A stretch of 58,432 bases of DNA, the filler included, from Platydemus manokwari (lineage: Eukaryota): assembly GCA_037951405.1 (NCBI GenBank). It is 5 parts of 5 records of this genome, joined end to end, with 100 filler letters (N's around TTAATTAATTAA, not from the genome) between each part and the next. Parts side by side here need not be neighbours in the genome. Positions count along the whole stretch, not along the records: positions 32,481 to 43,866 come from JBBMOY010709984.1; 4 more parts are not named here. One strand, written 5' to 3'. A program made the position numbers and the translations under genes. This document shows positions 14,105-53,600 of the stretch, piece by piece (position 1 is the stretch's first letter; the number at the start of each line of letters is the position of its first letter). Under the pieces are notes generated by a model that did no database searches, was not told the origin of the DNA, and worked only from the letters and a program-made list of their open reading frames with translations.

Positions 14105-16516
14105 TTATACACAATTAAGAGCTTTACGAATAACTTTAAGATTCGTAACTGATTCAGGATTAGTTTTTAAAATTAAATTAGTCAAATTAGCCATGACTTT
14201 TTCAGATAGATTCTGTTCATCATTGGAAGGTTGAAGTTGATAATTTGATAATCGTTGATAGTTAAATGCTTTCAGCTTAACCAAATCTTTCCAACTGTCA
14301 TTCAATAAAATTTGCAAATTTGATAATTCTTTTGTTTTTTCATTATCTTCGATATAGATTTTACCTAAATTAAATTAAAAAATATACAAGATAACACTAA
14401 AAACACTTAACCTGATGTTGATTGGTTCATAGTTATTGATTCTTCTGATCGAAATGATTTCATAATATCTCTTGTTAACGTATTCATTAAATAAAGACTA
14501 AAATCATCACCGAAAGTGACGTCAGGAATTATTTCATTTAAATCTTCGTATTGACATTCTTCTAAACTATTATCCCCATAAGCCCTAATAAGCAAATCAC
14601 TAGTTTCCTTTGAACAATATGCATTTCCTGAATCATAAGATGGACCGAACGAAAAGTTCGATCCATAATCTAGATATGAAAGGACAGTGACTTTATTTCT
14701 CCTATCTTCTTTATACCCTAATAGATTTTGAGTGCCTGATTTTAATTTACCTATTTGATCGCCAATCGTAATAATTCTTTCATTTTCATTGATTTTTCCT
14801 TTGTTGTATGGATTTAAAATATTAAGATAAGTGGCTCTGTCATCAGAATGGATTTTCGAATCATTCGATAAGGAACATTGTGTCGAATCATTTGTTATCA
14901 AAATTTTTGCACCAGAATACAATTTATTTTTAAAACCTTGTATATTCACCAAAGTTGTCTGATAAAGTTTTGCAGCCTCATTCCAGCCTATTGATTTTTC
15001 ATTGAAACAATGAATACCATTGGAGTATAATAACAGAAGATCATTCTCGAGATTATCTAAACTATTCGAATAATAGCCACCCTTCAATCGTCGTTTGATG
15101 ACTTGCATATCAATCTGTTCAGTTAACTAAATGATTGACAGAAACTGTAAAATGTATTCGAAATATTGCTTATAATTACTTGAAATGAAAACGGAGCAAA
15201 ATGATCGACTAATGGATATTGAAAATAGTCTGCCGGATCGTAAGTGATCAATAAATTAATTAAATCCTCTGAAAATTTCTCCAAAGAAAATTTAATATCC
15301 AATGGTAAAAGTGGCACTTTAAAATGGCTTAAATCGGGGATGGGTTTAAATTTTTTAATTTGCGTGCCTGTCACAAAATTACCGACATTTTCTAGACTTT
15401 TATTACTACAATTTCCTTTAACACTGAAATGTTTCGAACTATTGACATTCTGAATGGTGGCAGAAACACCTTGTGACAACTGTCCAAATGATGAACGACG
15501 CTTAGGAACCTTAGTTAATAGATGCGATGAAGAATCTAAGTTGAAAATAACTTTTCAAAATGTTCATCATCACAATAATTTACCTTGATTAGATTTCTTG
15601 CTTGGTGAAGACTCAATTTTCTCTACTACACTTTCCATCAATTTACGTTTTAACTGATCTCGAGGTAAACCAACAAGAAAATATTTATCATTTTCATTTG
15701 ATCTTGATTTATTGGGGCGTTTACTTTTATTCCGATTGCCTAATGTAATACATTCATAAATATAATTATTTTATTTACGCTATAAGAAATAAAATATTCA
15801 TGTTTAAATACCGTAATCATAAAATCAATATATTTGCTTTCATATAGTTATTGTTAAGATTGAGATTATACCAAACTTAAAATTATACAAAAATTACTAT
15901 CGATGATGTAATATTAAAAGCGTTACACAATACATTAATTTTAATAACTTCAAATATTAATTAATTCATTAATTAAGTATTTACTCATAAGATTCACATT
16001 TGCTGTTGAATTTGGCATAGCAAACAAAAACCATATTTTCAAAACAAAATTTATCTTTAAAAAATAAAATATAATTTGCAATTCAAAATCAAAAAAATAT
16101 CCCAAAATACGTCAAAATGTTTATTTAAAAATTAGATTGAAATTTTATTTCTGAAGAATTATTGTTTTGGGTTTTTTGAATTTATCTAAATTTATTGACG
16201 AAATTGGAGAAGTTTCGTCAAAAACAATTGAATGAATAGGTGATTAATAAAGGCAAATGAATATAAGAAACTTAATACTAATTATTTGAAAACCAACTAG
16301 ATTATATGATTTAATTTCAAAACACATTGTACACGTACCATAATTCTGAATATTAATCTTGCATTCCCTATTCCGAGACTCATTAAGGTTTTCATATTGG
16401 GATATTATATCAGAATCAAGTTTATCGCAACCTTCTGTTTCGGTTTCAGATCTTTCTTCATTTTCTTCAGTTGATTCTGATCTATCTAAATTCTTGAAAT
16501 TACTTTTAAACCTCAT
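14105..16516 (-). CDS. BRD7: Bromodomain-containing protein 7/9-like (SWI/SNF subunit), 5 exons, about 554 aa
   Basis: Phase-consistent GT-AG exons: 16516-16339, 15739-15584, 15535-15180, 15126-14412, 14364-14105 (1665 nt). Bromodomain DPADYFQYPLVDHFAP...IDMQVIKRRL..YY...DLLLLYSN..CFN. BRD7/9-specific region GYKEDRRNKVTVLSYLDYG..SFGPSYDS...SKETSDLLIRAYGD. Exon 1 is inferred from phase only, and BRD7 versus BRD9 is not resolvable by eye. Confidence 0.85.
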
Positions 16517-17874: not shown

Positions 17875-17974
17875 NNNNNNNNNNNNNNNNNNNNNNNNNN
17901 NNNNNNNNNNNNNNNNNNTTAATTAATTAANNNNNNNNNNNNNNNNNNNNNNNNNNNNNNNNNNNNNNNNNNNN
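17875..17974. other. Artificial scaffold-joining spacer
   Basis: 44 N + TTAATTAATTAA + 44 N. Confidence 0.97.
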
Positions 17975-30613: not shown

Positions 30614-30932
30614 TTATGAATATAATATTTCATCTCCTTTAGCACTGTTTTTATCAACAGGTGTGGTTGCAGTAACCGCTTCAGGAGTAATTTGGTCACA
30701 GGAAAATTCCTTCTCAAATTTAGGAAGATCAAATTCAAAGAACTGTTTGAGTCTGTCTGCATATTCCGTATACATTTCGATATCGTTATGACCGGCCCCA
30801 TCAATCCACGCTGGTTCTACTGGATAATTAAGCCGTTCGTGAAGTTGTCTACCGTGATTTATGTCTATAATTTCATCGTCTGTACCGTGTATGATTAAAG
30901 TGGGGCTTTTGATCCTAGCTACTTTGTCGATG
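30614..30932 (-). CDS. ABHD17: Last coding exon of an alpha/beta-hydrolase ABHD17 (protein depalmitoylase) gene
   Basis: After acceptor TTGCAG|C: [65 protein letters not shown]...EILYS*. Catalytic Asp (HGTDDE) and His (GAGHND) are intact. Not in the ORF track. Upstream exons were not found before the scaffold end. Confidence 0.92.
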
Positions 30933-32380
30933 CTGCAATATGATTTATATCAATTTTGTGTTACAAAAATCATTTGTGTTTTATTAAGTCAAATGATTAA
31001 CATTTGTTACCAATAAATCGTTATCAGGTGAAAGAAGAAAACCAAATACACATCCACGCATATAATCAAGCACTACATTTTATTACAAATACTAGTTTAT
31101 CAATGTTTCACAAAAATAACTTCAATCAATATAAATTTGGTATCGTTTTAGAAATTAGATTAAATCAGTTTAAATTCGCTGTACAACTGACTCCCTATAA
31201 ATTTCCTTATGGTGCCGTAAATGTCACAAAATCTACTTATTATCATTATATAGTTCACAAATTGATGGTCACCCAGAGAGAATAAACAACTTATCTAAAT
31301 GATGTAAATCAATAAAAGACAAAAATTATTGTATTGAATTGATGGAAAATGAAATACTGTAAATTAATTTACAAAATCGAATGTGATGTCAACAACTTAG
31401 AGATTAAATTCGTTGATGTTTATTATAATCAATTATTGGAATTGACTTCGTATTTCACCATCGTCTTTTTAGCATTAGCTCATTTTCAAAAACGTTATTT
31501 TAGTCAAAAATATTACGACCTAGCTTTTTCAGAAGACTATCTAAATTGATTTGAAATCATTCATTAGATTTCATTAGTTTCGTTAGTTTCAATTAATTAG
31601 GTAGTTATAATCTCATAAAGTTTGTATTTTATACCTGATGCAAAATAATATAAACATAACGAATTGATGAAAATTAGACTTTGAGTTTATGATTAAGGAA
31701 TTGAAATTCGTTGCACATAGTTCATACAAAGTCTGTAAAAGAAACACAAATTAGTGTCATGAAATCCGAACACACTAATTCAAAAAAATGCAAAATAAAT
31801 CGCATTAATGGAGTTGTTAAAGTCAATATTGTATTTCGTTAAATAACAATACCGTATTTTCAAAATAAACGAATATTGTTTAAATATGATTTCATGATGT
31901 ATGTTCGATTATTGATATCGTTAGAAATCTAAACTGAGATATTTATAGTCCAATTAAGAGTACAGACGTCCTTAATTTGGATATTTTGCCTTTACTATGC
32001 AATTGAAATTGTAAATAATAGATTGATTTCATGCTAGTAACAAATAAAAACTTTAATGAACATTCTTCATAAACGGATTCCAGTTTTTGATTTATTTATG
32101 CGTTATACATAAGCTTTTGGATAAAATGCTGTCTTATAAAGCAAAGTAAATAAAAATGGCTTATCTAAAACAAAAACATTTTTTCAATATTATAAAGCTT
32201 TTAAACAGCCATTAATTGATACACTACAAGTTATTTCGTAAATTATCGAAAGCTATGGTTCATCTATTTTACAGGTCTTTTTCACACATATCTATTTCTA
32301 TTTTCGTTAAATAAATTGGTTTAGATTTCGCATCTCAAGTAATACAATAAAGTTTCCTGGATAATCAAATATATATAGTA

Positions 32381-32480
32381 NNNNNNNNNNNNNNNNNNNN
32401 NNNNNNNNNNNNNNNNNNNNNNNNTTAATTAATTAANNNNNNNNNNNNNNNNNNNNNNNNNNNNNNNNNNNNNNNNNNNN
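32381..32480. other. Artificial scaffold-joining spacer
   Basis: 44 N + TTAATTAATTAA + 44 N. Confidence 0.97.
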
Positions 32481-35122
32481 GATGGTTTTGATTTTGATTA
32501 GTTATTTATTTTAAGCTATGTAATTTGTTGATTCTGTGATTTTAATGGTTTGATGGAATTTAGTGGTGATGATTTGAACTTCATAATTTCGAATAGTTAG
32601 GATCTGATAATTAACATTAAAAAGTTGCATGTAAATATTCGAGCAAATATGAACAATAACAATCAAACGAAATAATTGTAATCAATAATACAGATTATTG
32701 AATGTGTTAAGCGATAGTTTAAAAGTAAGGAAGTGTAGTAACCTGAAAATGCTAACAATCGATGGATAGAACTTGATGGCTTTCAACTTTGATATGAAAA
32801 TAAGTAAATAATTTTAGAGTTCGTGGAAGCTTAATTTAATGCATTATAACGAATCTCTTCGGATATTGATACAATTTGAATAACAAAAATAATTTGCCAT
32901 GTTGCAAATTGAATCGTTTGGAAAAAATAAATTGAATTGAAAATATAATTCGATGCGTAATGATTGAAGTCCACGTTTAATAGTTATGAGACAATTAAGT
33001 ATGAAATTTTCTGTGAAAATTTATGAATTTTACACCGTTTTATAGTTTCGGATTTGTGGATTTTGTTAGTCATTTTCAATAAAATTGCAAGTTGTTATGG
33101 TTATTTACTACGATGTCATGGTGATGTGTATTTGAATTTAAAAATCTATGGTTTCCTATTAAGTTGTCTGGCAACGGAATGAGTAATAATAAATTTTTGA
33201 AAAATCGGAATTTTATGTTTTAATTATTAACGACCACAGTCAAATCGCAATCAATTGTGTTTCATATACAACAGTATGCATCATTTGGATTTTATAAATA
33301 TTTGAAATAGATCTTTTAAATTCTTTTAGATGAAAGAACCATTTAAAATTATTATTATTTAAATGAAAAAAATTGCAATTTACGCACATAAGCTAAAAAT
33401 ATTTTTATAATTCAGTTAAACACTAATAAATATATTTAACACACTTTAGCATGATTAATCGTTCTGTTTCAATAAATACGTGTTCAATTTAAATATCGCA
33501 GATGATAATGTTATCCATTTATTTCTGAGAGTTATTCATGATCGATAATTAGATTTTGTTAAAATTATCACGGACATCGCGAATTGTGATCATATTTTCA
33601 ATGATTTTCAACGTATTACTACATTTTTCGTTAAGATGTATGTTTTTTCGATTATCTATCATAATTTACTTTTAAAGTCAGTATCAAATAGAATTTTTGT
33701 TTTACTATCAAGTAAGCAACACATTATTCATATCATTGGTATCCCATATTTTGTTATACCAGATTGTCAAAATAGTATAAACGGTAAAATATTGTTATAA
33801 AAATTTGTATGTACTTAGTTTATTTTGAGTACATATTTTATTTTTTGCATGATTTCTAATTTTTTCTATTTACATTTAAAGATGATGATATTAATATAAT
33901 TTTAGTTTCCAACATGGACTGGGTCATTGTAAAGGTTTAGATATCATACAATAATATAAAGTGCTGAACTTAATATTTCATCGATGGTCTTGTAAAGTTA
34001 CTTTTTCAAATCTTCAATGAAATCTACTTATCATTTATCTTATGATAAAAATCCATAATTCTTTTCAAACTTGAAGCAGCGGATGTTTAAAAATTTAATT
34101 TGATTCTATAAATGGTTCTATGAAATCAAGTTATGGACTTAAGTATTTTAAAATACTTCAAAGATTATTTAATATAAAATTACCTTATTGTTTGGAATTC
34201 CACCCATACATTTTGTAATGTATTCATTAATACTTTCTTGAAATGATATGAGCTTCATAGTGCTTTGTAATTGCAGTTGATTATTAACGCTTTCAAATAA
34301 AATCTACTGTATCATAATTGCAGTGGACATAACAGGTGTTTCCTTGCCTTTTCAATATGTATGGAGAATATGATCAATTTTTTCATGGCATTTATTACTT
34401 GAAACTATTCTGTTAAGTCTTTGTCAATTCTTGTTTTTTGAGTTGCAGTTGTTCTCCAATTTGAACATCGGCTTGAAAAAGTTTCAATTTCCTTTGTATG
34501 TTTAGAAGTCAAACGTTATCAGTTCACATGTTATTTTCATGTTTGACTCTCTCAGTCCAAATATGTGAATAGAAATATTTATGTTGAGATGATTGGGTTT
34601 TATTGATGTTATGGTCCAACTGTTAAGGAATATTTCTTATTGTGATGATAAAAATAAATAAATAAAATAGAAATTAAGTATTTATCACTGTTGCATGATG
34701 CAGATCGATAGAAAGAAGACTGATAATTAGGGTTAGATTTGATTGAAAACTGAAATAGGTTTACAGAATGCAGGACCTACACAAGTGGAAAAGAACAATG
34801 CGATGTGAATATTTATCAAATAAAATATTTTTTGACTTACTTGAGAAAATCGATAATTTTACCAATTAGGGATTTCTCTAATTCTTCATTAATTTCTAAT
34901 AACTAAGTTAATTATTAATATAATTAATTGCCCAAAAAATTTAGTGTTATTGGGATTTTAGTAAAATGTAATCGATTAATTTTTTTTTAATTGCCATCGC
35001 TTATCGACCTTTATAGTAGTTAAAAATACAAGTTTTCGAATCAGTGGCTTTTTGAGTCACTTTGAATTTTAAATTATTTGTTTTAAGATTTGTGATTTTC
35101 ATTGTTTGTCTTATCATTATGA

Positions 35123-35711
35123 TTAACTACTGACGTTTAATTTTTTCGCAAGCACACAACATTCGAGAATAGCACCCTTGCATTGAGAAGTATACATCCA
35201 AGGATAATAATTAGAAGCAATCAACACAGGCATACGATGAAATTTGACTTTGGGTTGGTTTTTAATGGAAATTTTAAGATTTTGAGATCCTTCCATGAGC
35301 AGGTTAAAGTAATTGGCCATGGTATTGTTCTCAAATATTATTTCATCTCCAATAGCGAGGTCTGCATTTTCCAGATCATCTAAAGCAAATTCGGATTTGA
35401 AATTTAAAATATTAAAATTTCCTATTTTAGAGTATGTTGAGGCGAGAATTTGCACGAATAAAGATTTCCCTGAGCTAGGGGGTCCGACGAATATAATTCC
35501 GTTGGTTTTTCCCGACTGCATACTGAGTACCAAACCCATCGAAATAATTTTTTTTATCGAAATCAGTGAATATATGATTGTCCTCCATATAATGTTTCTC
35601 GATATAAATATTAATTGAGTCAGTAATATTAGAATTATAGATGAAATTAGCGTTATTAACAAATTCATAGCTAAATCTCGTAATTTCATTACTGACTTCA
35701 GCAGTGTTCAT
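35123..35711 (-). pseudogene. Stand-alone superfamily-3 helicase, papillomavirus E1 / parvovirus NS1-like (frameshifted)
   Basis: Walker A GPPSSGKS, FALDDL, Walker B AIGDE, B' LMEG...ISIKNQ, motif C PVLIASN. The likely N-terminus MNTAEVSN...DFDKKNYF (from 35711) is in another frame, implying a frameshift near 35540. Confidence 0.85.
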
Positions 35712-35845
35712 TTACTTTGAATCTTACATTGTTTATGATATTAAAACAAATTTTACACAGAATAAAATATATTTTTTTAAACTAAAACATCAATAACCAT
35801 GGTAACATCGATAACAAGTTATAACATTTAATATTCAATTAACAT

Positions 35846-36010
35846 TCAATAACTATACATTTTTTTACGAGTTTTATCAGCAGCTTTAATTTCATACTCG
35901 CAATTGACACAATAAGAATAATAAAATGCATAACAAGTTTGTTTATGTAGCACACTAGGATCAGGACGACCACAATAACATTTACCCAAGTCACCAACAA
36001 TACTATTCAT
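35846..36010 (-). CDS. 54-aa Cys/His-rich ORF (possible zinc-binding protein)
   Basis: MNSIVGDLGKCYCGRPDPSVLHKQTCYAFYYSYCVNCEYEIKAADKTRKKMYSY*. Its ATG (36010-36008) overlaps the Rep stop TGA (36009-36007) as ATGA. Confidence 0.45.
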   Translation of the reverse strand: MNSIVGDLGKCYCGRPDPSVLHKQTCYAFYYSYCVNCEYEIKAADKTRKKMYSY

Positions 36011-37114
36011 TCCTTCGTAGAATCCCCTTTCTTCTGCGGAACATCCATTTGGGCAAGGCGGTAATTCAATGCTAGCTTTGCATAAACACTTAAGGTCGGG
36101 GTGCGGTTCGGCTGAATATCAAGATCAACATCTTCATCATATAATTTTTTATTAAATTTATGAATTTTAATCCGTCTACTAATGGCATCTAATACTTCTA
36201 CACTGCATTTTAGGATAAAAATATCCCAAATCATTTAAGCATATAATTCTAGGCATTTGCGCAGGTATATAACCAGTAAAATATTTAATATTAATATTAT
36301 GCTCAAAAGCACAATCTACCATATTCAAAACATCATGACACGGTAATTTAGATATATTAATATCATCAATTACGATGCCATCAATAATATTCGGATTATC
36401 ACTAATTCTGCCAAAATTTTGAATACTAGTTATATGAACCGGACTGCGAAAATGTGCTAGTGCAAAGTTGGTTTCACCAATATTCGTAGGCCCAATAAAT
36501 ATATGAGTTAAATTGTCATAAACATCAATAAATTTGATATTAAATTTCGTATGATGAGCTTAGGTAACACATCCAAATTCAGCATCAAAAGTTTCAGATA
36601 TAACTCTTCTTTTACAACAATAAGTCTCAGGACGTAAACGTTTTATTACAGACATAGCTTGATGCCAAACATTGATAGGCGGACCAGATAATATAGTATT
36701 AACATCTTTACTTGCTTCGCCATAAGTAACAACTTCTGTGCCAGGTATACGAGTTTCAAGTTTGCAACTATATAATATTGCTTTTCTTTTGTTTTGTGGA
36801 CTAACTGGTGTAACGAATTTTACACCTTATAATTCGCAAGCTTTCCTGAAATTTACAGCATGTTTAAATTCGACATTAGCTTGAACATGACGATAACCAT
36901 TATCAGAAACTAATAATTATTATTAAATAAATTTAAATAATAAATAAAGTAAACCTTCTTTTTGAAATATCATATATTTTGTATTAGTTTTCCATAAATG
37001 TTCATAATGATTTTGATTACATTCATAATTACTCAAGGGGAAATTAAAGGAGTAGTTTCGGTGTCTTGATCCTGTTCCGTTATCGATGGCATTATGGTGA
37101 CTTAGTAATTCCAT
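36007..37114 (-). pseudogene. rep: CRESS-DNA-virus type rolling-circle Rep (HUH endonuclease + SF3 helicase), intron-containing and disabled
   Basis: Motif I RNYSFNF; KYMIFQKE|V across intron 36954-36910; motif II GYRHVQANVEF; motif III YSCKLETRIPGTEVVTYG; Walker A GPTNIGET; Walker B GIVIDD; INIKY...IPAQMPRIICLN (motif C); Arg finger DAISRR. In-frame stops at 36827-36829 and 36560-36562, and a frameshift near 36210. Confidence 0.88.
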
Positions 37115-40100
37115 GTTTAGATCTCAACTAATATTTTGTACATTTTTTATAAGAATATTTTATCTTAATATTCTCTAATATTAATCTAATTTAATTTATC
37201 ATAACTTTTTATGGGTGTATTTTGATCATATTTGTATGAAAACAATTATAAATATCAAGAAAACTATCTTACTATGACACAACCAGGGCAAAATACGTCT
37301 AGCTTATCTATTTTCATGCATTTATTCAAATAATATGATTGTTGATCGTTCCGGTGGGAAGACTTTCCAGTGCTGGAATTGTTCATTATCCGAATTTTTA
37401 TGCTAAGATAAAATAATTATTCAAAACAAAATTTAATATTAAAACTGGAACAAGCGATGACTTGGAATGTTTTATACAACGAAAGACACGGAACACTCAA
37501 CGAGATGTTGAGAAGCCAGTTGGAAATACGAACATGTCAGTCATAAAATTCTGAAATACAATTCATAACAACTTCGATGCTCATATAAGAGCATATGAGG
37601 AAGAAATGATGGTCAGTGAAACAATCGTAAAGATGCAGCTAAAAAAGTATAAAAATAATGTGGAAGTAATATACAAGTTATGGTACAGTGAGAGGAGAAT
37701 AAAGAAATGATTTAAATTAATTGGCATTTTGATAATTATTTAATAATTCGTCAATGGCATTAGAATGTTTATTTGAAATTATTTAGATTTATTGGCAAAG
37801 ATCAAAATTTTTGTAATTAATCAAAAGCTATAAATAATTAACATAATAGCCATTTCAAATTGTTACCAAAGGAGGCATAAAATATCACGAAATGTATGCA
37901 TATAGTCTGGAGAGTAGATAAATTTTAAATAATACATGGTCATAATTAAATCAAATAATATAATCTAAATGGATAATATATAAAAGACTGATTTAAAAGC
38001 CAAATAAATAGAACGGGTAATTTAATCAATAAAATAAATTTTATTCTATTAATAATAAATGAAAATAATTATTTAAAATTACAATTTCACAGGATAATGT
38101 CTCGTTATACATAATAAAGACATTTGTTTAATAAAGACGATTATATACTTTCCATTTATTTACAACAATTAAACCTTACCGGGAATAAAGATGTTTAAGC
38201 TTACCAAAAATAAATTTTTTTTACTCATTCACAATTCATAAAATTATTTCAAAAAATCGGACATCCTTATCCGTACTATTATTACTATTCTTATTATTGT
38301 TAGATGTCAATATTTTCAATGATTTTAACCCATTAATAAGAATATTTTTTCATAATTGTATAAAATTAGGTCATTAGAATCTTATACCTAATTCTCATCT
38401 CTTGAATTTACGATCAAACTAATGACCGCAAATTACCTTACAATTTTCTGTTTAAATAAATTTAAATTAACATCTTTTGTAATTCACAAATTATTATGAA
38501 AGTTAATTTCATAAAACACATTACCCAAGATACCAGCTCACATATCATTTATTGATCCAAGCTCGGAATTATAGGCCATTTCTGGAATCTCAGAGTTCGA
38601 TTTGAAGGTGGGATCCTATTAAATTTTTGCTACACTGAATCAAAATTCCACAAATTAAATTTTTAGCTTTCAATAGAGCATGAGAAATATTCTTCAGAAG
38701 AATCAAGTGATAAAAACTTGGAATAACTTTTTAAGTTAACCAAATAGCTGACAATCAAATATTTTTCTCGTGTTAATTTTCATATAAAAAATAATTGAAT
38801 TACTGATGAAGAATTAGTTTTTAAATGAAACCAAAAGGATACTAAAACTTTAAAATGCTATATAATATTATTACCGATGATTAAATCAATAAATCATATA
38901 CTTAGTAAATCATATACTTCCCGATGTGTAAGATTCGGGATGATTATTAAGAATGAAATGTTAAGAGAAAGAAAACGAATCACGTTTAAACGGATTATTA
39001 ACACCAACAATATTTAAATTACCATTATTATGTTACCCTTTTAGTGACTTAAAAGAAATGAAACCTATTTTAAAGGAAAAGCCAGAAGCTATAATTGGGT
39101 TTGAAAGATTTGTTTGAAAGAACTTATTGCATTACTAAAATCAGCTAAAATATATTACTAATTATTTTGTAATTATAATTACTAATATTTAGAGTTCATT
39201 CATGAATTATTTTTCACTCAAATTTACATCAGATCACATCGATCTTGTTCATTACACAAATAATTGATCATAAAGTCAGGTTTTGATTCGTTAATTTTTC
39301 ACATAACAATAATAAATATTATTCCTTATTATTATTATTCATTATTAAAATTTCTTGGAGTAACAGCTTTTCCAAACATTACTAATTGAAATTTTTTTTT
39401 CTACATTACAAATTTTAAAGTCATGACATTTAATAAGGCATAATAAACCAAAAGTTCAATAAAGTAAATGTTGAGGATTTTTGGATAAATTTCAAGAGAC
39501 GGGAGATATATAAAATAAAGACAAATATAAAAAATACGATTTTTGCACTCTAAAACCCTTTTTTTTTACATTTTACAAATATGCATGATTACACAACAGC
39601 CAAAGTATGGTATCCAGGTAATCAAATATTTAAATTGAAGATTCCAATTTGGTTAAAGAACATGATTACATAACATCAGAAAAGGATTGACTAATCCCGA
39701 TCATAGAAAACCAATGGACATAATTGGGATTGTGGAAATAACATATCAAAATAAAAGGTAACACAAAAATACACGAAGTTTCAAGTATAAATAACGATGC
39801 AAAGATGGCTTATTGCCACTTGAAAGACGCTATTCGAGTCTATTGTTGTAGAATGTAGTTGAATTTGTTTATGATTATTTTATGTGAACTTAAGTAGCAC
39901 GGTTTTCTTGTGAAAATAATTTGCAACTTTTATTTCATTTTAATAAATCCAACAGGTACATGTTGCAGGTCTGCATTGGAAATTAGTAAAATTGTCCTAG
40001 CAAAGCAGGAATCATTGTCATAATCGAAGGTATATTTAAAGTAACTATTTTGTTTTACTAACTTAGCAGTTCGTCAGTATTATCTATGATATAGTAAAAG

Positions 40101-40415
40101 TATAATTTATGCAGTTATTTATAAAGGTGCTTCAGTCTATCAATGGGATTGTGTCAAAGGGATACTATGTCATGTAGAATCTAGTAGGTAGAATCAAATT
40201 TGTACAAGGATCTTATAATCATTTTGACTTACTGATATTTGTGGTTTGTTATAAAATTATAAATTTTAAACAAAGAACCAAATTATCAGTGTTATAGTAA
40301 ATAAACGGAGTTAGTTTTAAATGATTAGTTGAGTTCGCTGTAGTACCAGACTTAACAACATTAGTAATTATATTATTAAATAAAATTTATGTTTGAAGGT
40401 TAAGGTTAAATGTTT

Positions 40416-41021
40416 TGGTTCGCAGGGGCTTCAGTAACTGGTATGAGGACAAGATTACTGGAAAAGTAGTTAATGTAATAAAAGGTCTTTTGCACAGAGG
40501 AACTGATGATGCTCTGGACCTGAAATGATTGAATTGTGAATTATCAAGAAGTCCCACTGAGTGCAATAAATAATATTTATTTAGGAAAAATACAAAAATA
40601 GCAATTAGTTAATTATGAATGAACACAAAAGAAATAAGTTTATTTATTTTAGCTATGTGCATTTCTTTATGTCTGATATTTACAATTCCTCTTACTTATT
40701 TAGATATCTTTTATTGATTAATTATTTCATAAATTAATAATTTCTCAGTGTCGATAACCATTTCCCACATTTGCATCTTTTACTCTGCTTTTTATATAAA
40801 CAGATTACATTATTAAAATATAATTAAGCACGATAATTTAATAGATTTATTAAATATTTTATTGGGTGGTCGATTGAGTTTAAATATTGCTGGTTCCTAG
40901 GGGCTTCAGTAACCGGTATGAAGTCCAAATTACTGGTAAAATTATGAATTTAGACTGAAGATCTGTGCGCAGAGGAACGGATGTTGCTCTGAGACTGAAA
41001 TGATGAAAAATCGTAAATCTC
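40416..41021 (+). repeat. Two ~130-bp direct repeats (period 475) ending in hammerhead-ribozyme-like cores; Penelope pLTR-like
   Basis: TGGTTC..AGGGGCTTCAGTAAC.GGTATGA...CAGAGGAAC.GATG.TGCTCTG...CTGAAATGAT at 40416 and 40891. CTGATGA-N12-GAAA at 40503-40525 and degenerate CGGATGT-N12-GAAA at 40978-41000. Confidence 0.55.
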
Positions 41022-43866
41022 GAATGAAATCGAGTTGATTTATAATGACGTGGCGAATTTAATAGATTTTAAAAATTATTTCCTTTGCGGTTAAGAATGC
41101 AATTGATATCCCTTGAACTAATCGTAACTTAGACAAAATGCGTGATACGAAAATTCTTTATTTATATTGAATAGAAACAAAACAATTATTATCAAAGAAA
41201 ACAATAAAGGTTTTTTTTGAAAAATAATCAGTACCTTGTCTGAGCGATTAACCTGTAAATTCGTAAGACGGACGAAGCAGGTGATTATTAAAGATGGAAG
41301 ATATTAGTTACCGACTCTCCACAATGTAAAATATTATTATCGTTACGAAATGTTATAAGAATGTTCAAATATTATTGAAATTATACAATGTTATGAACGG
41401 GATATGGTTACTTAATAAGCGTTTAAATGTTTGCAAAAACGACGATGAGAAACAAATCAAAACGAAAGGCTTACTATTAACTGTAAGATTGATCACAAGT
41501 TTCCTGTCCAATACAACGTTATTCCTCAATGTTCCTGCCTGAACTGGTCGAGAAATTCGATATATAACCGTGAATTAAGTCTACGATATATCCGTTCGCG
41601 ATGAGAGTTCTTGTGAAATGACAATCACCTGCTTCAAGGGAAAATGTTGGGTATCCGAATGAAATTGTCTATGGTATTTATAGTCGATGTTTTCTCCGCC
41701 TACGTCTATCTTGTTCTACGATTTAATTATTTATGCTGATTATTCTATTCATTTTCTTAATTTACATTTTCTTATTTCTTAATAATTATTATCTATCTTA
41801 TTTTGTAATTTCTAATAATTGTCTTAATTTATTGTTTTTCTAATATTTATTATCTATATTATTTTATTCTATTATCTACTTATCTATTTATTTCTATTAT
41901 TTATTATTTACCTATCTTTTGACTTAATATCCCTTTATATATATTTTTATTAGTTTATCATTTCCTATTACTTTCTCCCGCGTCGGCACTCGTCTCCCAC
42001 CTTCACCATCTACTCTGCACTTGTACATAAACATTCATAATGATCACAATAATATATGAATTGTCAATACATCAATTGTTTATTATAAGAGCATATAAAA
42101 TAAAAAATAGTTGTTTATTAACAATTCAAGCAATATATAGATAGTTGAAACACAACAATTAACTGATTATCAAGCATTTATGAAATAAAAGCAGTTTGAA
42201 TATTGTTGACATTGTTGGGTTTGACTTCGTTTGATGTTCTGTTTCTCGTGACACTGCTGGGCATCACTTCGTTCGACGCTGTTTCTCGGTTTGGCAGTCC
42301 ACAATCAATGTATACACTATCTTAGAATTTTATCATACGGTGGGACTGTATGTGCTTTTGAGTTTTAGAGTTATGTACACTATGACTGGTATCCAACAGA
42401 TTATTGATTATACAGTGAAATAACTAAAGTCACATTAAAAAGCTACATCACAAAATCTACACAAAATCATAATTATTGTCAAAGTGTATATACACAAAAG
42501 GCACAATATCATTGTTATATTGTTATTTGTTAGAATGATCACCATGGAATTATTGTTTCGTGTTGAGTAATGATGGTTTGATCTATGTTGCTGTCATTTT
42601 TTGCTCGGATATCCATAATCAAGGTGTTGTTTATCTTATTGGATTGGTATTTCCATTATCTATGTACAAAAGTTGGGCTTGATGATGTCTAATGACGATA
42701 TGCACGGGGTTTTGTAATTGTACACAGGGTTTTGTAACCGTAAGTAACTATACACTGTTAATTGCACTGTTAATACACTGGGACTGAGTATAATTGTAGA
42801 GTACTTTTTTGGCTGGGTAATCGTAATGTATTTCGTAGTGGCTGGTACCTTCAACAATATATTTAATTAATTTCGATGCTTTTTTTTGATATTTTTTAAT
42901 ACTCTGTACTCATCAATTTTTATAAAAATTGATTATTTATATCCCATCGATAATTGCACACAAATGATAATTTGCATTCAGTCTATATTTAGTTTACTAT
43001 TGTATAAACTTGTTCGAATTTTTACAGTGGATGAATTTTTATGTTTTATTGCTATCTAATCTTCAATTATCTCCTGATTGTCTTATGGTTCAAAGTTTTC
43101 AACAGGAATACCTAGTGAAAGTTATAATTACTAAACTATATTCTCTAAACTATATTCTCTTAGTCTCTTATTTGCATTTAAATCTTTAATTATTTTTCGA
43201 AACGTAATCTTTTTAATACTGACTTATAGTCTCGTTTAACACGGTTTTACATAACATGGATTTTTCTATGAAACTGCTACAATATTGTAGAAGGGACATC
43301 CGGAGAGACATTGTTTTAGACAAGGTGCATAAAAATAATTGGTTTAAATTAAAATATAATATAATGTATTGGTTTTCTAATTAAATTAGGGCTCTTCCTC
43401 AATCGCATTTAATAATCATAGATTTGAAAATGAAGCAAGTCACTTAGATATTTTTAATAACAAAATTAAAAACAAAAGTAAAATTTTCTCGAAACAGACC
43501 AAATTTTTCCACCCACATATTGTTAGATTTTTTAAAATGATTGAAAAAGTATTTTTATATTAAAAAATTATGAGAAAATGATCAAGTTTTTGTTAGTAAA
43601 ATTTTTTATAAATGTATATAAACTTTCAAAATGAAGCATCAGTATTCAAGAAATGAGATAGATTTCAAAGAAATATCGATTGCCATATTTTATTAATTAT
43701 TATTTTATTGCAATATATGGCTTATTTTCTTATCGGGATAAGCTTAAATGATTAAAAATGTGTAATCCTGTTTTCACTATATATTCAAATATTTATGGTT
43801 TTAGTATTTAGGGTCGGTATATTGAATCTTTTTGATTGGCATCTTAAATCCATAATTACTTTAATC

Positions 43867-43966
43867 NNNNNNNNNNNNNNNNNNNNNNNNNNNNNNNNNN
43901 NNNNNNNNNNTTAATTAATTAANNNNNNNNNNNNNNNNNNNNNNNNNNNNNNNNNNNNNNNNNNNN
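43867..43966. other. Artificial scaffold-joining spacer
   Basis: 44 N + TTAATTAATTAA + 44 N. Confidence 0.97.
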
Positions 43967-50699: not shown

Positions 50700-53600
50700 C
50701 TCACCTCGACTTTGATAAACTTTTGTATGTCTTGTAAAGTGGTATCTTCCTTAATTGAGCTTGCAGTGGCACCAAATCTGAGTTTCGGGAGCATCAAATC
50801 TTTTCTTTTTATTTTTGCGCTTTGAATTGAATTTGTTGAGATAGATACCAAGAGTTCTGAGTTCTAAGGAATATGGAATGTGACAGATGGCTAGTTGATT
50901 TTTTTGTTTTGTCTTGTAGCTTGGAAGTGTTAGCAGTAGGTAGTAGCAACATAGGTTGTAACGAAGAGTTAGTTGGTTGATTGCAGTACTGTTTGTTAGC
51001 TTGAAACAGATCATCAGATATGTATCGTATAATTGGATAATTGAAATGTTTAGGGAGTCGTGTTCACTGGGCTAGGAGTAAGAAGTCGTAGCATTCGAGA
51101 AGCTGGGTGTGAGATCCTATTTGGACAGAGCAGGAGAGTATATTTAAGTTATTAATAACTTTCTTTTAAAAAGTGAATGAATAAATTATATTTGGATGAT
51201 AATTTTAAAATTTTAGATTTAATGAAAGTGATTCGTATATAGTTAAGCAGTGTGAAAATTTTAAAATTATGTAAATTTGGAGGTCTGTTAATTAATATGA
51301 AAAGTTCTAATATGTGAATTAATTTAATATGAATTTGATATCAAAGATGATGAAAATTGATAAGTATTTAAATTGGGTGAAACAAGAAATGATTAAAGGT
51401 GATGAATGACAAAAAAATAATCAAGGAGCAATATTAATCTATTACTGTGTGAGGGGGTGTGATAAATTTGGCCTACCTTTATTTGTGTGGGCAGTATATG
51501 TGGCGTAAGCATCTCTTAACAGTGCTGTGATTATTAGTGAGAGAAGAAAATTAGTTATTGTGTTGTCGAGTTCTATTAACTTTAAGATTTTATCATTATG
51601 TGGGTCTCATGATTCTAATACACCTATGTTAAGGACATCTAATGTTGTTTGGTGCCTATTAGTGATAGCTATTTATTTTGTTATGGATTTGTACTTATCG
51701 TAGTTCAGTGATCTATATAGGCCAAAGTTAGTGTCCATATTATATGGTATTTTAAGATATATAATGTACTTGTATTTTTTTTTGCATTATTATGTATAAT
51801 TAGACCAGGTCTAAGCTTTGTGTTGATCTCAGCTGGTGCTAAATTTATATCAGCGTCTATCTCAAGGGACTGAAGGTATTTTTCTATGATGTCAAGAATC
51901 TTGGCGTGTCGTTTATTGCTTTTTCCGGGTATGGCAGGGCAATGTATGAAAACATGTGCAGCAATTTCATGTTCTGTGTTAGATCTTCTACATAGCAGGG
52001 GCTTATGAAACTTAATGAAGTATAGAGAGTAATTAAAGATGAGGAAGTTATTCCGGGCCCAGTGGGTGAAAATTCAGACTTCAGGAGAAAGATGACAATT
52101 ATATAGGGGTTTTTGGGAACGTGGTGAAGCAGAAAAACAGTGAACCAGACAACCTTGTTTTTGGAGGGTCTTCCACTGATTATAATGGAATATTTGGACG
52201 GGGTCATGGGGTATATCTGAGAGTTTGTTCCTGTTATCGACTGAAAAGAAATATGTGAGGTTTTTTCTGATGCGAATTTCGGATACATTGTATAAGAATT
52301 CAATGTTGATGTTGTATTTTCGTAATTTTTTAACTGAGGAACGGATTTGTGTCCACCAAGTTGAGATGGGGTATTTAGATGAGAGGATATTATCGCTTAG
52401 CCATGATAGTGTAGTGTGTATGGTGTTTGGGTGAGATGGGTCGAGTCTTTTACCAACAATGTATAGCAAGTGTGATACAATAAATTCACGGATCTTGTGC
52501 ATCGAGGTCGATTAGTGATTTATTAAAGGATTGTGGAGGTGATACGAAGTTATGAGTGCTCGAATCTTTTGAAACATTAAAGTTGAAATTATTTGGACAT
52601 ATATTATAATTACGTAAAAGTGGGGAAATTTTTCAACGTTAAAAAATATTAATAAAGAAAGAACATATAATAAGATATCTGCATTTGAATTCGAAGTGAT
52701 AAATCTGGTAGTAGATAATCTAGAAGGGTGAACAAGATTATAGTTAAAATTATTATTTTGATAAGAATTCATAGGTTTATGTTGCCGTCTAATTCGATTT
52801 TTTAGTTTGATTTGGATTGTTGTGGTATTGAGTTAGTGGTGCGAGGTCAGAATAGTTATGAAGTGGTTTGAATCTGTTGACTGAGTGAAATCTGTTGATC
52901 GGGTTCGGAGCATAGGCTGTTGGGGACGTGAATAACTGTTTGCTGTGATCGGGCAGTCGGTGTGGGGAGTAGAGCGCGTCCGGTTGTAGTTTTCGGGATT
53001 AGTTGGTGTCGGAATTGACCAGCAATGTGACAAGCATTGTGATTTGTGAATTGAGGTTTCGGAGAAGCGGTATCTCTGGTTAAATCAACATAATACCAGG
53101 AAATATTATCATTTACAGGTCTAAATGAAGAAGGATAAGTGTGAAAATCATTAACAAGAAAGTTTTGTAATCGGTCTCTGGTGCGGGTTCCGTTACCATG
53201 GAGATCTGAGAGAATTCGACCAGTAAGGAAGCCAGTAAGGGATGAGATGATGGACCTTGGAAGAGAATTCATGTTATGAACATGATTTAATTTACGGTCA
53301 CCGGATTGGCTTCTCGGTCTAGATTTCCGTCTCTGGATTCTAGATAAATATCATAATTATTTTCATTGAAGAGAGTATATGGCCGGGCAGAGTAAAATCC
53401 ATGTAATTAAGGACGGGTGTTCTCCATAGTATGACGAGAGGGGTTCTCGTATTGATTTCCATTTGGATTCCGCCGGGGATAGGCAAAGATATCTCCATTT
53501 TCACCAGAAAATGAAAAAATTCTGCGATCAACACGATGATGTAATCTTCTACAATGTAGACAAAAAAAATAATTACACCAGGGATTTGTGATTTGTATGT
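50700..53600 (-). mobile_element. Decayed non-LTR retrotransposon (LINE)
   Basis: Less AT-rich block with ORF fragments. RT-like pieces in order: PAEIN..PG (about 51820), SVQIGS (cf. GVPQGS, about 51120), YISDDL (about 51015), IPYSLELRTLGIYLN (cf. KYLGV, about 50850). Confidence 0.45.

What the first reader, a model, noticed from the sequence alone, without database searches (positions are those of the whole stretch)
35123..37200. Chromosomal fossil of a two-helicase virus-like element (PEVE-like): HUH Rep + Cys-rich microprotein + separate E1/NS1-like SF3 helicase
Seen: three co-oriented, compact ORFs on the minus strand. They are a ~350-codon CRESS Rep with RCR motifs I-III and a complete SF3 motif set, a 54-aa Cys-rich ORF, and a second, different SF3 helicase (GPPSSGKS) with no endonuclease domain. 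Established: typical CRESS viruses, parvoviruses and papillomaviruses each carry one SF3 helicase. The planarian extrachromosomal virus-like element PEVE (Girardia tigrina) was described as encoding a circovirus-like Rep plus a papillomavirus E1-like helicase. Inference: this is a degraded, integrated member of that little-studied lineage. Stops, frameshifts and a Walker A K>E change, inside a scaffold with host transposon debris, suggest germline integration of a family known as extrachromosomal. No capsid gene is recognisable.
Basis: partly seen in the sequence, partly recalled or inferred. Interest (0 to 1): 0.88.

Follow-up and report, generated by a model that had tools for sequence, protein, structure and literature searches.

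The report
Dead two-helicase planarian-virus relative in chromosome
This 2-kb stretch holds broken copies of two different viral helicase genes whose nearest named relatives both belong to one obscure flatworm DNA element (PEVE), so it is most likely a chromosomal fossil of that little-studied family, of which one integrated member was already reported.

Summary
On the minus strand lie a broken CRESS-type Rep (37114-36007), a 54-codon Cys-rich ORF and a broken stand-alone NS1/E1-type SF3 helicase (35711-35123). Both helicases point to PEVE. PEVE's small-segment helicase ranks 5th among 1.84 billion proteins and is the only named one of ten looked up. PEVE's Rep groups with the window Rep at 99/99. 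Closer unnamed relatives exist (Rep 44-58%, helicase 69-83%), and two Rep/helicase pairs share exact contig lengths, an indirect sign of linkage. One contig at flank-like depth spans the element and both flanks, but its run may be the assembly's source. Integration is not new: PIVE of Schmidtea carries both genes (PMC3198968). New here: a divergent sublineage, and a predicted 45-nt intron in the nuclease domain that explains three of five stops; PEVE's Rep likely has a nearby intron too. Against: the second-helicase tree is unresolved, no inverted repeats, origin or capsid were found, and the host phylum is undetermined. I infer that the second helicase was a packaging motor; this is untested. 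The scan had not noted this family before.

The parts
36955..37114 (-). Rep, predicted exon 1: start codon and RCR motif I region
   Evidence: aligns with P0002 from its residue 70 and, by eye, without gaps with the upstream frame of PEVE Rep
36910..36954 (-). Predicted 45-nt GT..AG intron just before motif II, holding three in-frame stops
   Evidence: 93% AT, canonical ends; P0002 has an unrelated insert at the same place, P0158 begins there, P0159 and PEVE have no insert; no RNA evidence
36209..36909 (-). Rep main part: motifs II and III, central domain, SF3 Walker A (Lys position holds Glu), Walker B, motif C; stops at 36829 and 36562
   Evidence: 44-58% identity to five Logan/ENA proteins, 28% over 246 aa to PEVE Rep
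36007..36210 (-). Rep C-terminal tail in a different frame, with the arginine-finger motif AISRR
   Evidence: tblastn of four relatives continues in this frame; alignment
35846..36118 (-). Cys-rich frame: 54 aa from the ATG at 36010, open for 90 codons, overlapping the Rep tail; no family found
   Evidence: no significant match in Pfam (6), Atlas (36), PEVE's Cys-rich ORF (68) or a fold search on a low-confidence model (101, 108)
35550..35711 (-). Second helicase, N-terminal piece (about 53 codons)
   Evidence: 43% over 47 aa to P0009, E 2.6e-12 in a local comparison
35123..35554 (-). Second helicase, NS1/E1-type SF3 domain (GPPSSGKS near 35485-35462), in a different frame from its N-terminal piece; arginine finger lost; ends about 30 residues short of P0007
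37375..37710 (+). Decayed divergent frame upstream of Rep, two internal stops; may be viral or host debris
   Evidence: no family, no match to PEVE ORFs
33133..38142 (.). Stretch covered by one contig of run X1, holding the element and both flanks
   Evidence: 5010 nt, 0 differences, depth 13.1 against 9.8-16 for neighbouring exact contigs

Best explanation
This is a broken pair of viral helicase genes related to those of the planarian element PEVE, most likely a single dead insertion into an animal chromosome, from a parent element that is predicted to have used a spliced CRESS-type Rep to start copying its DNA and likely used the separate nuclease-less helicase as a packaging motor. Shown: both genes, their breaks, their kinship to PEVE's two helicases, and one contig joining them to both flanks. 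Inferred: (1) integration in the germ line, from depth, flanks and decay; (2) one insertion and not two, from shared orientation, tight packing and paired relatives; (3) splicing of the Rep; (4) in the parent, Rep nicks an origin with its HUH domain and unwinds with its own SF3 domain, as established for CRESS Reps; since PEVE's segments end in 180-nt inverted repeats, the origin may be a terminal repeat and not a nonamer stem-loop; (5) the second helicase is a parvovirus-NS1-like motor that lost its nuclease and was kept for pushing single-stranded DNA into particles, by analogy with AAV Rep40/Rep52 (recalled knowledge, no call). I put steps 1-2 at about 0.85, step 3 at 0.8, step 4 at 0.7 and step 5 at 0.4. 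The window copy cannot work: both motors have lost a catalytic residue and both frames are broken.
For: Helicase 2: PEVE NP_476522.1 is hit 5 of 173 (E 8.9e-17, 40%) among 1.84 billion proteins and top of 19 IMG/VR loci for the family alignment, which includes it. Rep: a profile of the window Rep and four relatives, without PEVE, scores PEVE Rep at 170 bits against 122 for the next IMG/VR ORF and 78-82 for the two distant database hits; tree of 34 Reps: window, five relatives and PEVE on one side of a branch at 99/99. Pairing: 2 of 15 Rep x close-helicase pairs share an exact contig length (2762, 4342) against 2 of 931 other pairs, P about 5e-4; the window's nearest Rep (P0003) and nearest helicase (P0009) are the 2762 pair. 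Control: 0 of 28 other CRESS contigs with a related Rep carry the second helicase. Integration; host genes BRD7/9-like and ABHD17-like in the window. Precedent: PIVE (PMC3198968).
Against: The second-helicase clade with PEVE has support 96 in FastTree but is unresolved in IQ-TREE (23 of 300 bootstrap trees; AU p 0.379, not rejected); N-terminal similarity is only weak. PEVE's Rep is a long branch, and the tree tool warned of that. Linkage in relatives rests on contig lengths, not DNA; two equal lengths also arose outside the tested pairs, one surely by chance (different sources). No inverted repeats, origin hairpin or capsid were found, and no capsid could be shown in PEVE either, which weakens the packaging idea. 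Only one run holds the DNA and it may be the assembly's source. No empty site or target duplication was identified. The host phylum is not known.
Confidence: 0.8

Rival explanations
1. The parent was a capsid-less, virus-derived mobile element (PIVE-like) that spreads within genomes, and the second helicase serves replication or copy-in, not packaging.
For: No capsid found here or in PEVE; PIVE is catalogued as an integrated repeat with numerous copies (PMC3198968); P0009 ends early, as a decayed copy would.
Against: No other long copy at 80% or more in run X1; no terminal repeats; PEVE has long unassigned ORFs (626, 277, 265, 169 codons) that could hide a divergent capsid.
Confidence: 0.25
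2. Two unrelated viral insertions, one CRESS Rep and one parvovirus-like helicase, landed next to each other.
For: The two helicases come from different SF3 lineages; the helicase-2 tree does not resolve a PEVE clade; linkage in relatives is indirect.
Against: Both genes have the same nearest named relative; same strand, an ATGA overlap and a 134-nt gap; congruent contig-length pairs.
Confidence: 0.05
3. The stretch is an episome or contaminant wrongly joined into the scaffold.
For: Only one run, possibly the assembly's own source, holds it; PEVE itself is extrachromosomal.
Against: One unbranched contig carries the element plus 2 kb and 1 kb of AT-rich flank at flank-like depth, and repeat-rich sequence continues beyond it; both helicases are inactivated, which a self-copying episome would not tolerate.
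Confidence: 0.06

Closest known systems
[quoted passage not shown]
   Same: CRESS-type Rep (28% over 246 aa, same tree group) plus a separate ~225-aa NS1/E1-type helicase without nuclease (35-40%); a ~90-codon Cys-rich ORF; Rep likely spliced in the nuclease domain.
   Different: PEVE has the two helicases on different segments (5699 and 1911 nt) bounded by 180-nt inverted repeats, with other long ORFs. Here they are 300 nt apart with the Cys-rich ORF between, no repeats, both broken. The Cys-rich ORFs show no similarity and the candidate introns lie 14 codons apart.
[quoted passage not shown]
   Same: Integrated; PIVE_3p is listed beside PEVE's Reps and PIVE_1p beside PEVE's small-segment helicase in Fig. 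S7.
   Different: Described as numerous copies; this one appears single-copy. PIVE's sequence and gene order could not be seen (Repbase entry and Fig. 5B not available), so its layout may already match this one.
Unclassified CRESS viruses with a GKTxFALxHF Rep (28 IMG/VR contigs, P0159, P0160)
   Same: Homologous Rep helicase domain.
   Different: Outside the PEVE group in the tree; 0 of 28 contigs carry a second helicase.
Parvovirus NS1 / AAV Rep40-52 and papillomavirus E1 helicases
   Same: SF3 domain: best solved-structure matches are a parvoviral NS1 (9kbj, E 1e-4) and E1 (1tue, E 5.7e-4).
   Different: NS1 and E1 carry an origin-binding or nuclease domain in the same chain; AAV's nuclease-less forms come from the same gene as its nuclease (recalled). 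The window helicase lies outside the 18-row E1-like group.

Membership tests
PEVE/PIVE-like elements | CRESS-type Rep of the PEVE lineage | tested here: met
   Profile 170 bits against 122 next; tree 99/99 with a long-branch warning
PEVE/PIVE-like elements | Separate nuclease-less NS1/E1-type helicase related to PEVE's | tested here: met
   Rank 5 of 173 hits, nearest named relative; about 196 codons, no nuclease
PEVE/PIVE-like elements | Second helicase forms one clade with PEVE's | tested here: inconclusive
   FastTree 96; IQ-TREE 23 of 300 bootstraps; AU p 0.379
PEVE/PIVE-like elements | Unique regions bounded by long inverted repeats | tested here: inconclusive
   None found around the element; a decayed or partial insertion need not keep them
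PEVE/PIVE-like elements | Homologues of PEVE's other ORFs | tested here: not met
   No tblastn or tblastx match in the window; so it is filed as a relative, not as a PEVE
PEVE/PIVE-like elements | Flatworm host | tested here: inconclusive
   27% GC eukaryote; the BRD7/9-like fragment's nearest Atlas clusters are arthropod and nematode at 0.82-0.83, leads only
PEVE/PIVE-like elements | Extrachromosomal forms | not testable with these tools
   Only contigs of one run were available
Cressdnaviricota (typical CRESS virus) | HUH + SF3 Rep with motifs I-III, Walker A/B, C | tested here: met
   intact relative P0002 hits Gemini_AL1_M above and Viral_Rep just below cut-off
Cressdnaviricota (typical CRESS virus) | Nonamer in a stem-loop origin | tested here: not met
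   The only TAATATTAC (35631) is inside the second helicase gene; z 0.25; four spacer stretches z -0.43 to 0.73
Cressdnaviricota (typical CRESS virus) | Jelly-roll capsid gene | tested here: not met
   None recognised in the window
Parvoviridae / Papillomaviridae | SF3 helicase fused to an N-terminal nuclease or origin-binding domain | tested here: not met
   Only about 75 codons precede Walker A; close relatives are 222 aa or shorter

The most novel reading that the evidence does not exclude
PEVE is one member of an unrecognised, widespread family of invertebrate DNA viruses that are chimeras: a parvovirus-like, repeat-ended genome whose nuclease was replaced by a spliced CRESS Rep while the old NS1 helicase stayed on as a separate packaging motor. 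This window and at least two unnamed contigs would define a second, compact genome type with Rep, Cys-rich ORF and helicase in a row, and the family would mark a further, independent gain of a Rep intron, with two positions inside the nuclease domain.
Probability: 0.35. Interest if true: 0.75.

Novelty: new member of a known kind. Interest (0 to 1): 0.5.

Why it matters
PEVE has stood almost alone since 2002: nine full-text searches found it only as a citation or tree tip, with one paper (PMC3198968) discussing it and PIVE. This locus gives probes for a deeply divergent branch, points to at least five more Reps and three close second helicases in unnamed assemblies, and suggests that the Rep of the family, PEVE included, is spliced in a place not described in the passages read of a Rep-intron survey (10.1101/687855). 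That makes an old question testable: why one small DNA element keeps two SF3 motors, and whether it has a capsid. The copy itself is dead and integration has a precedent, which caps the interest.

Tried and rejected
No whole genome is held for this window. The PEVE paper is not held; PEVE's layout was read from its two segments instead. Searches with no hit: longer forms of helicase 2 (0 of 277 candidates, weak evidence); close relatives in IMG/VR. The one metagenome scan returned only a bacterial PilT-like chance hit, L001, so no DNA context of the close relatives was obtained. No RNA holder listed. Second laying on 34700-37700: 47 contigs laid, the listed pieces 43-56 nt and AT-rich; the 5010-nt contig was not listed in that call; contigs show presence, not absence. 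Cys-rich ORF: Pfam, Atlas (best 0.82, recognition below threshold), PEVE comparison, AlphaFold (pLDDT 56.7) and Foldseek (best E 1.7) gave nothing. A capsid in PEVE: ORFs L003:207-1040 and L002:230-739 looked to me like parvovirus capsid halves (recalled motifs), but Pfam, PDB sequence search and a single-sequence fold (pLDDT 31.5) gave no support. Terminal repeats and origin hairpins: none above chance. Upstream ABHD17 exons around the element, which would have placed it in a host intron: not found with short recalled motifs. A 31-nt alternative PEVE intron was rejected because it does not join the two frames. Rows left out of trees: partial Reps of L028-L031 and the second piece of L004; 1 of 169 helicases without a profile hit; the careful helicase tree used 45 rows that I chose after seeing the quick tree.
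Full report
Setting. The window is a gapped eukaryotic scaffold of 27% GC with a BRD7/9-like exon at 14407-15126, the last exon of an ABHD17-like hydrolase at 30614-30949 (family name from my reading of the motif; Pfam gives Hydrolase_4) and retrotransposon debris. No whole genome is held. The host phylum was not determined: the Atlas puts the bromodomain fragment near arthropod and nematode clusters at 0.82-0.83, which it calls a lead only.

The observation. The Rep runs from 37114 in one frame to about 36209 and continues in another to 36007. Motifs I, II, III, Walker A, Walker B, C and the arginine finger are all present; the Walker A lysine position holds Glu, unlike all five close relatives. 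Of five stops, three lie in a 45-nt, 93% AT stretch with GT..AG ends. Relative P0002 has an unrelated 17-residue insert at the same place, P0158 was called from that point, and PEVE and P0159 have no insert there, so I read it as an intron; no RNA was available to test this. The Cys-rich ORF starts on the Rep stop (ATGA) and its frame is open for 90 codons; such frames arose in 0.7% and 0.1% of 20,000 resamples. It has no relative that I could find. The second helicase begins at 35711, changes frame near 35551, passes three Pfam cut-offs (PPV_E1_C, DUF5906, Parvo_NS1), has lost its arginine finger and ends at 35123.

Relatives of the second helicase. An exhaustive search of 1.84 billion representatives gave 173 hits at E 0.001 or better. 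The top three are 69, 70 and 83% identical; the fifth (E 8.9e-17, 40%) is the PEVE small-segment helicase NP_476522.1, the only named protein among the ten that I looked up. With it I retrieved both PEVE segments from IMG/VR (L002, L003). In a FastTree of 168 helicase domains the window, its three close relatives, PEVE and six other short proteins form a group with support 96, apart from 18 E1-like proteins (these 18 come from 7.0-8.3-kb contigs that I take to be papillomaviruses, no call names them). An IQ-TREE of 45 rows did not resolve that group: it appears in 23 of 300 bootstrap trees and is not rejected (AU p 0.379). The part before Walker A gives weak extra support: a PEVE-side profile ranks P0009 first and P0007 third among non-members, and the reverse profile ranks PEVE third.

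Relatives of the Rep. The word-indexed search found 4 of 123 candidates (44-58%) and, with a profile, 7 of 4787, adding P0158 and two distant proteins. That profile, built without PEVE, scores PEVE's Rep at 170 bits, against 122 for the next IMG/VR ORF. In a tree of 34 Reps the window, five relatives and PEVE lie on one side of a branch at 99/99, with a long-branch warning for PEVE. None of the 28 other CRESS contigs (2.0-5.2 kb, some partial) carries the second helicase. PEVE's own Rep sits in two frames that line up with the window Rep without gaps if a 56-nt GT..AG stretch (L003 4028-4083) is an intron, 14 codons upstream of the window's (alignment by eye).

Do the two genes travel together? 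I could not fetch the DNA of the close relatives. But P0003 (Rep) and P0009 (helicase) both come from contigs of 2762 nt, and P0158 and P0007 from contigs of 4342 nt. That is 2 of 15 tested pairs against 2 of 931 other pairs, P about 5e-4. The sources agree within each pair, and the window's nearest Rep and nearest helicase are the 2762 pair. This is good but indirect evidence.

Is it integrated? One run (X1, kind not on record) holds the DNA. One of its contigs covers 33133-38142 with no difference at depth 13.1, beside exact contigs at 9.8-16, and repeat-rich sequence follows at 38181 and 40000-42400. No other long copy at 80% or more was listed. The run may be the assembly's source, so this rules out a scaffolding join inside the element but is not independent. 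No terminal repeats, origin hairpin or capsid were found.

How it most likely worked. The window copy is dead. In the parent, Rep would nick and unwind as CRESS Reps do (established), perhaps at terminal repeats like PEVE's 180-nt ones (inferred). For the second motor I favour packaging, by analogy with the nuclease-less Rep40/Rep52 of AAV (recalled), at about 0.4; a role in replication of a capsid-less element is the main rival. The packaging idea needs a capsid, and my tests on PEVE's ORFs found none, though single-sequence tests are weak.

What is known. PMC3198968 (section 8 read whole, other passages, supplement file 1 searched and part 13 of 14 read; figures not visible) reports PIVE, an integrated element of Schmidtea mediterranea; the text of its Fig. 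S7 lists PIVE_3p beside PEVE's Reps and PIVE_1p beside PEVE's second helicase. Integration of this family is therefore known, and PIVE's gene order, which I could not see, may match this one. The PEVE paper itself was not held; I saw only its citation. 10.1101/687855 (passages; its supplements are closed) describes Rep introns in geminiviruses, genomoviruses and some circoviruses and does not contain the word planaria. 10.1101/551184, PMC6186406, PMC9241645 and PMC10269781 (passages) only cite PEVE. Nine full-text searches (listings and abstract starts) showed no other description of this family or of its splicing; most subscription journals are not covered. The scan's own notes hold nothing on it.

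Verdict. A real, dead, probably integrated relative of PEVE and PIVE from a divergent branch: a new member of a known but barely studied kind. Interest 0.5. The most novel reading, a widespread chimeric two-motor virus family with a compact genome type and its own Rep intron, has a probability near 0.35 and would deserve 0.75.

Noticed in passing
L003:3548-4944 (PEVE large segment): PEVE's Rep lies in two frames that join in register if a 56-nt GT..AG stretch (4028-4083) is an intron; motif I is in the upstream frame.
   Followed up: partly
L003:207-1040(-) and L002:230-739(+): Two PEVE ORFs beside the inverted repeats looked like the two halves of a parvovirus-type capsid (recalled motifs); Pfam, PDB and single-sequence folding gave no support.
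   Followed up: partly
proteins P0144 and P0161 (JGI contigs of 1935 and 2543 nt): Closer relatives of the PEVE helicase itself (P0161: 227 aa, 61% identity) occur in environmental assemblies.
   Followed up: no
proteins P0008 and P0024: Two different second-type helicases both come from Logan contigs of 2369 nt; chance or one contig with two such genes.
   Followed up: no
window 37375-37710 (+): Decayed frame divergent from the Rep, where PEVE has a 626-codon ORF; no similarity found.
   Followed up: partly
window 14407-15554 (-): BRD7/9-like gene: bromodomain plus DUF3512.
   Followed up: no
window 30614-30949 (-): Last exon of an alpha/beta hydrolase, ABHD17-like by my reading; its other exons were not found near the element.
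   Followed up: partly
window 51700-53600 (-) and 9217-9507 (+): Decayed non-LTR retrotransposon with a weak zf-RVT match (E 0.006) and a retrotransposon RNase H-like fragment.
   Followed up: no
window 9032-9131, 17875-17974, 32381-32480, 43867-43966: Four 100-nt scaffold spacers of N runs around TTAATTAATTAA; they account for the longest apparent inverted repeats.
   Followed up: yes
window 39800-42700: High-copy host repeats, summed contig depth up to 760.
   Followed up: no
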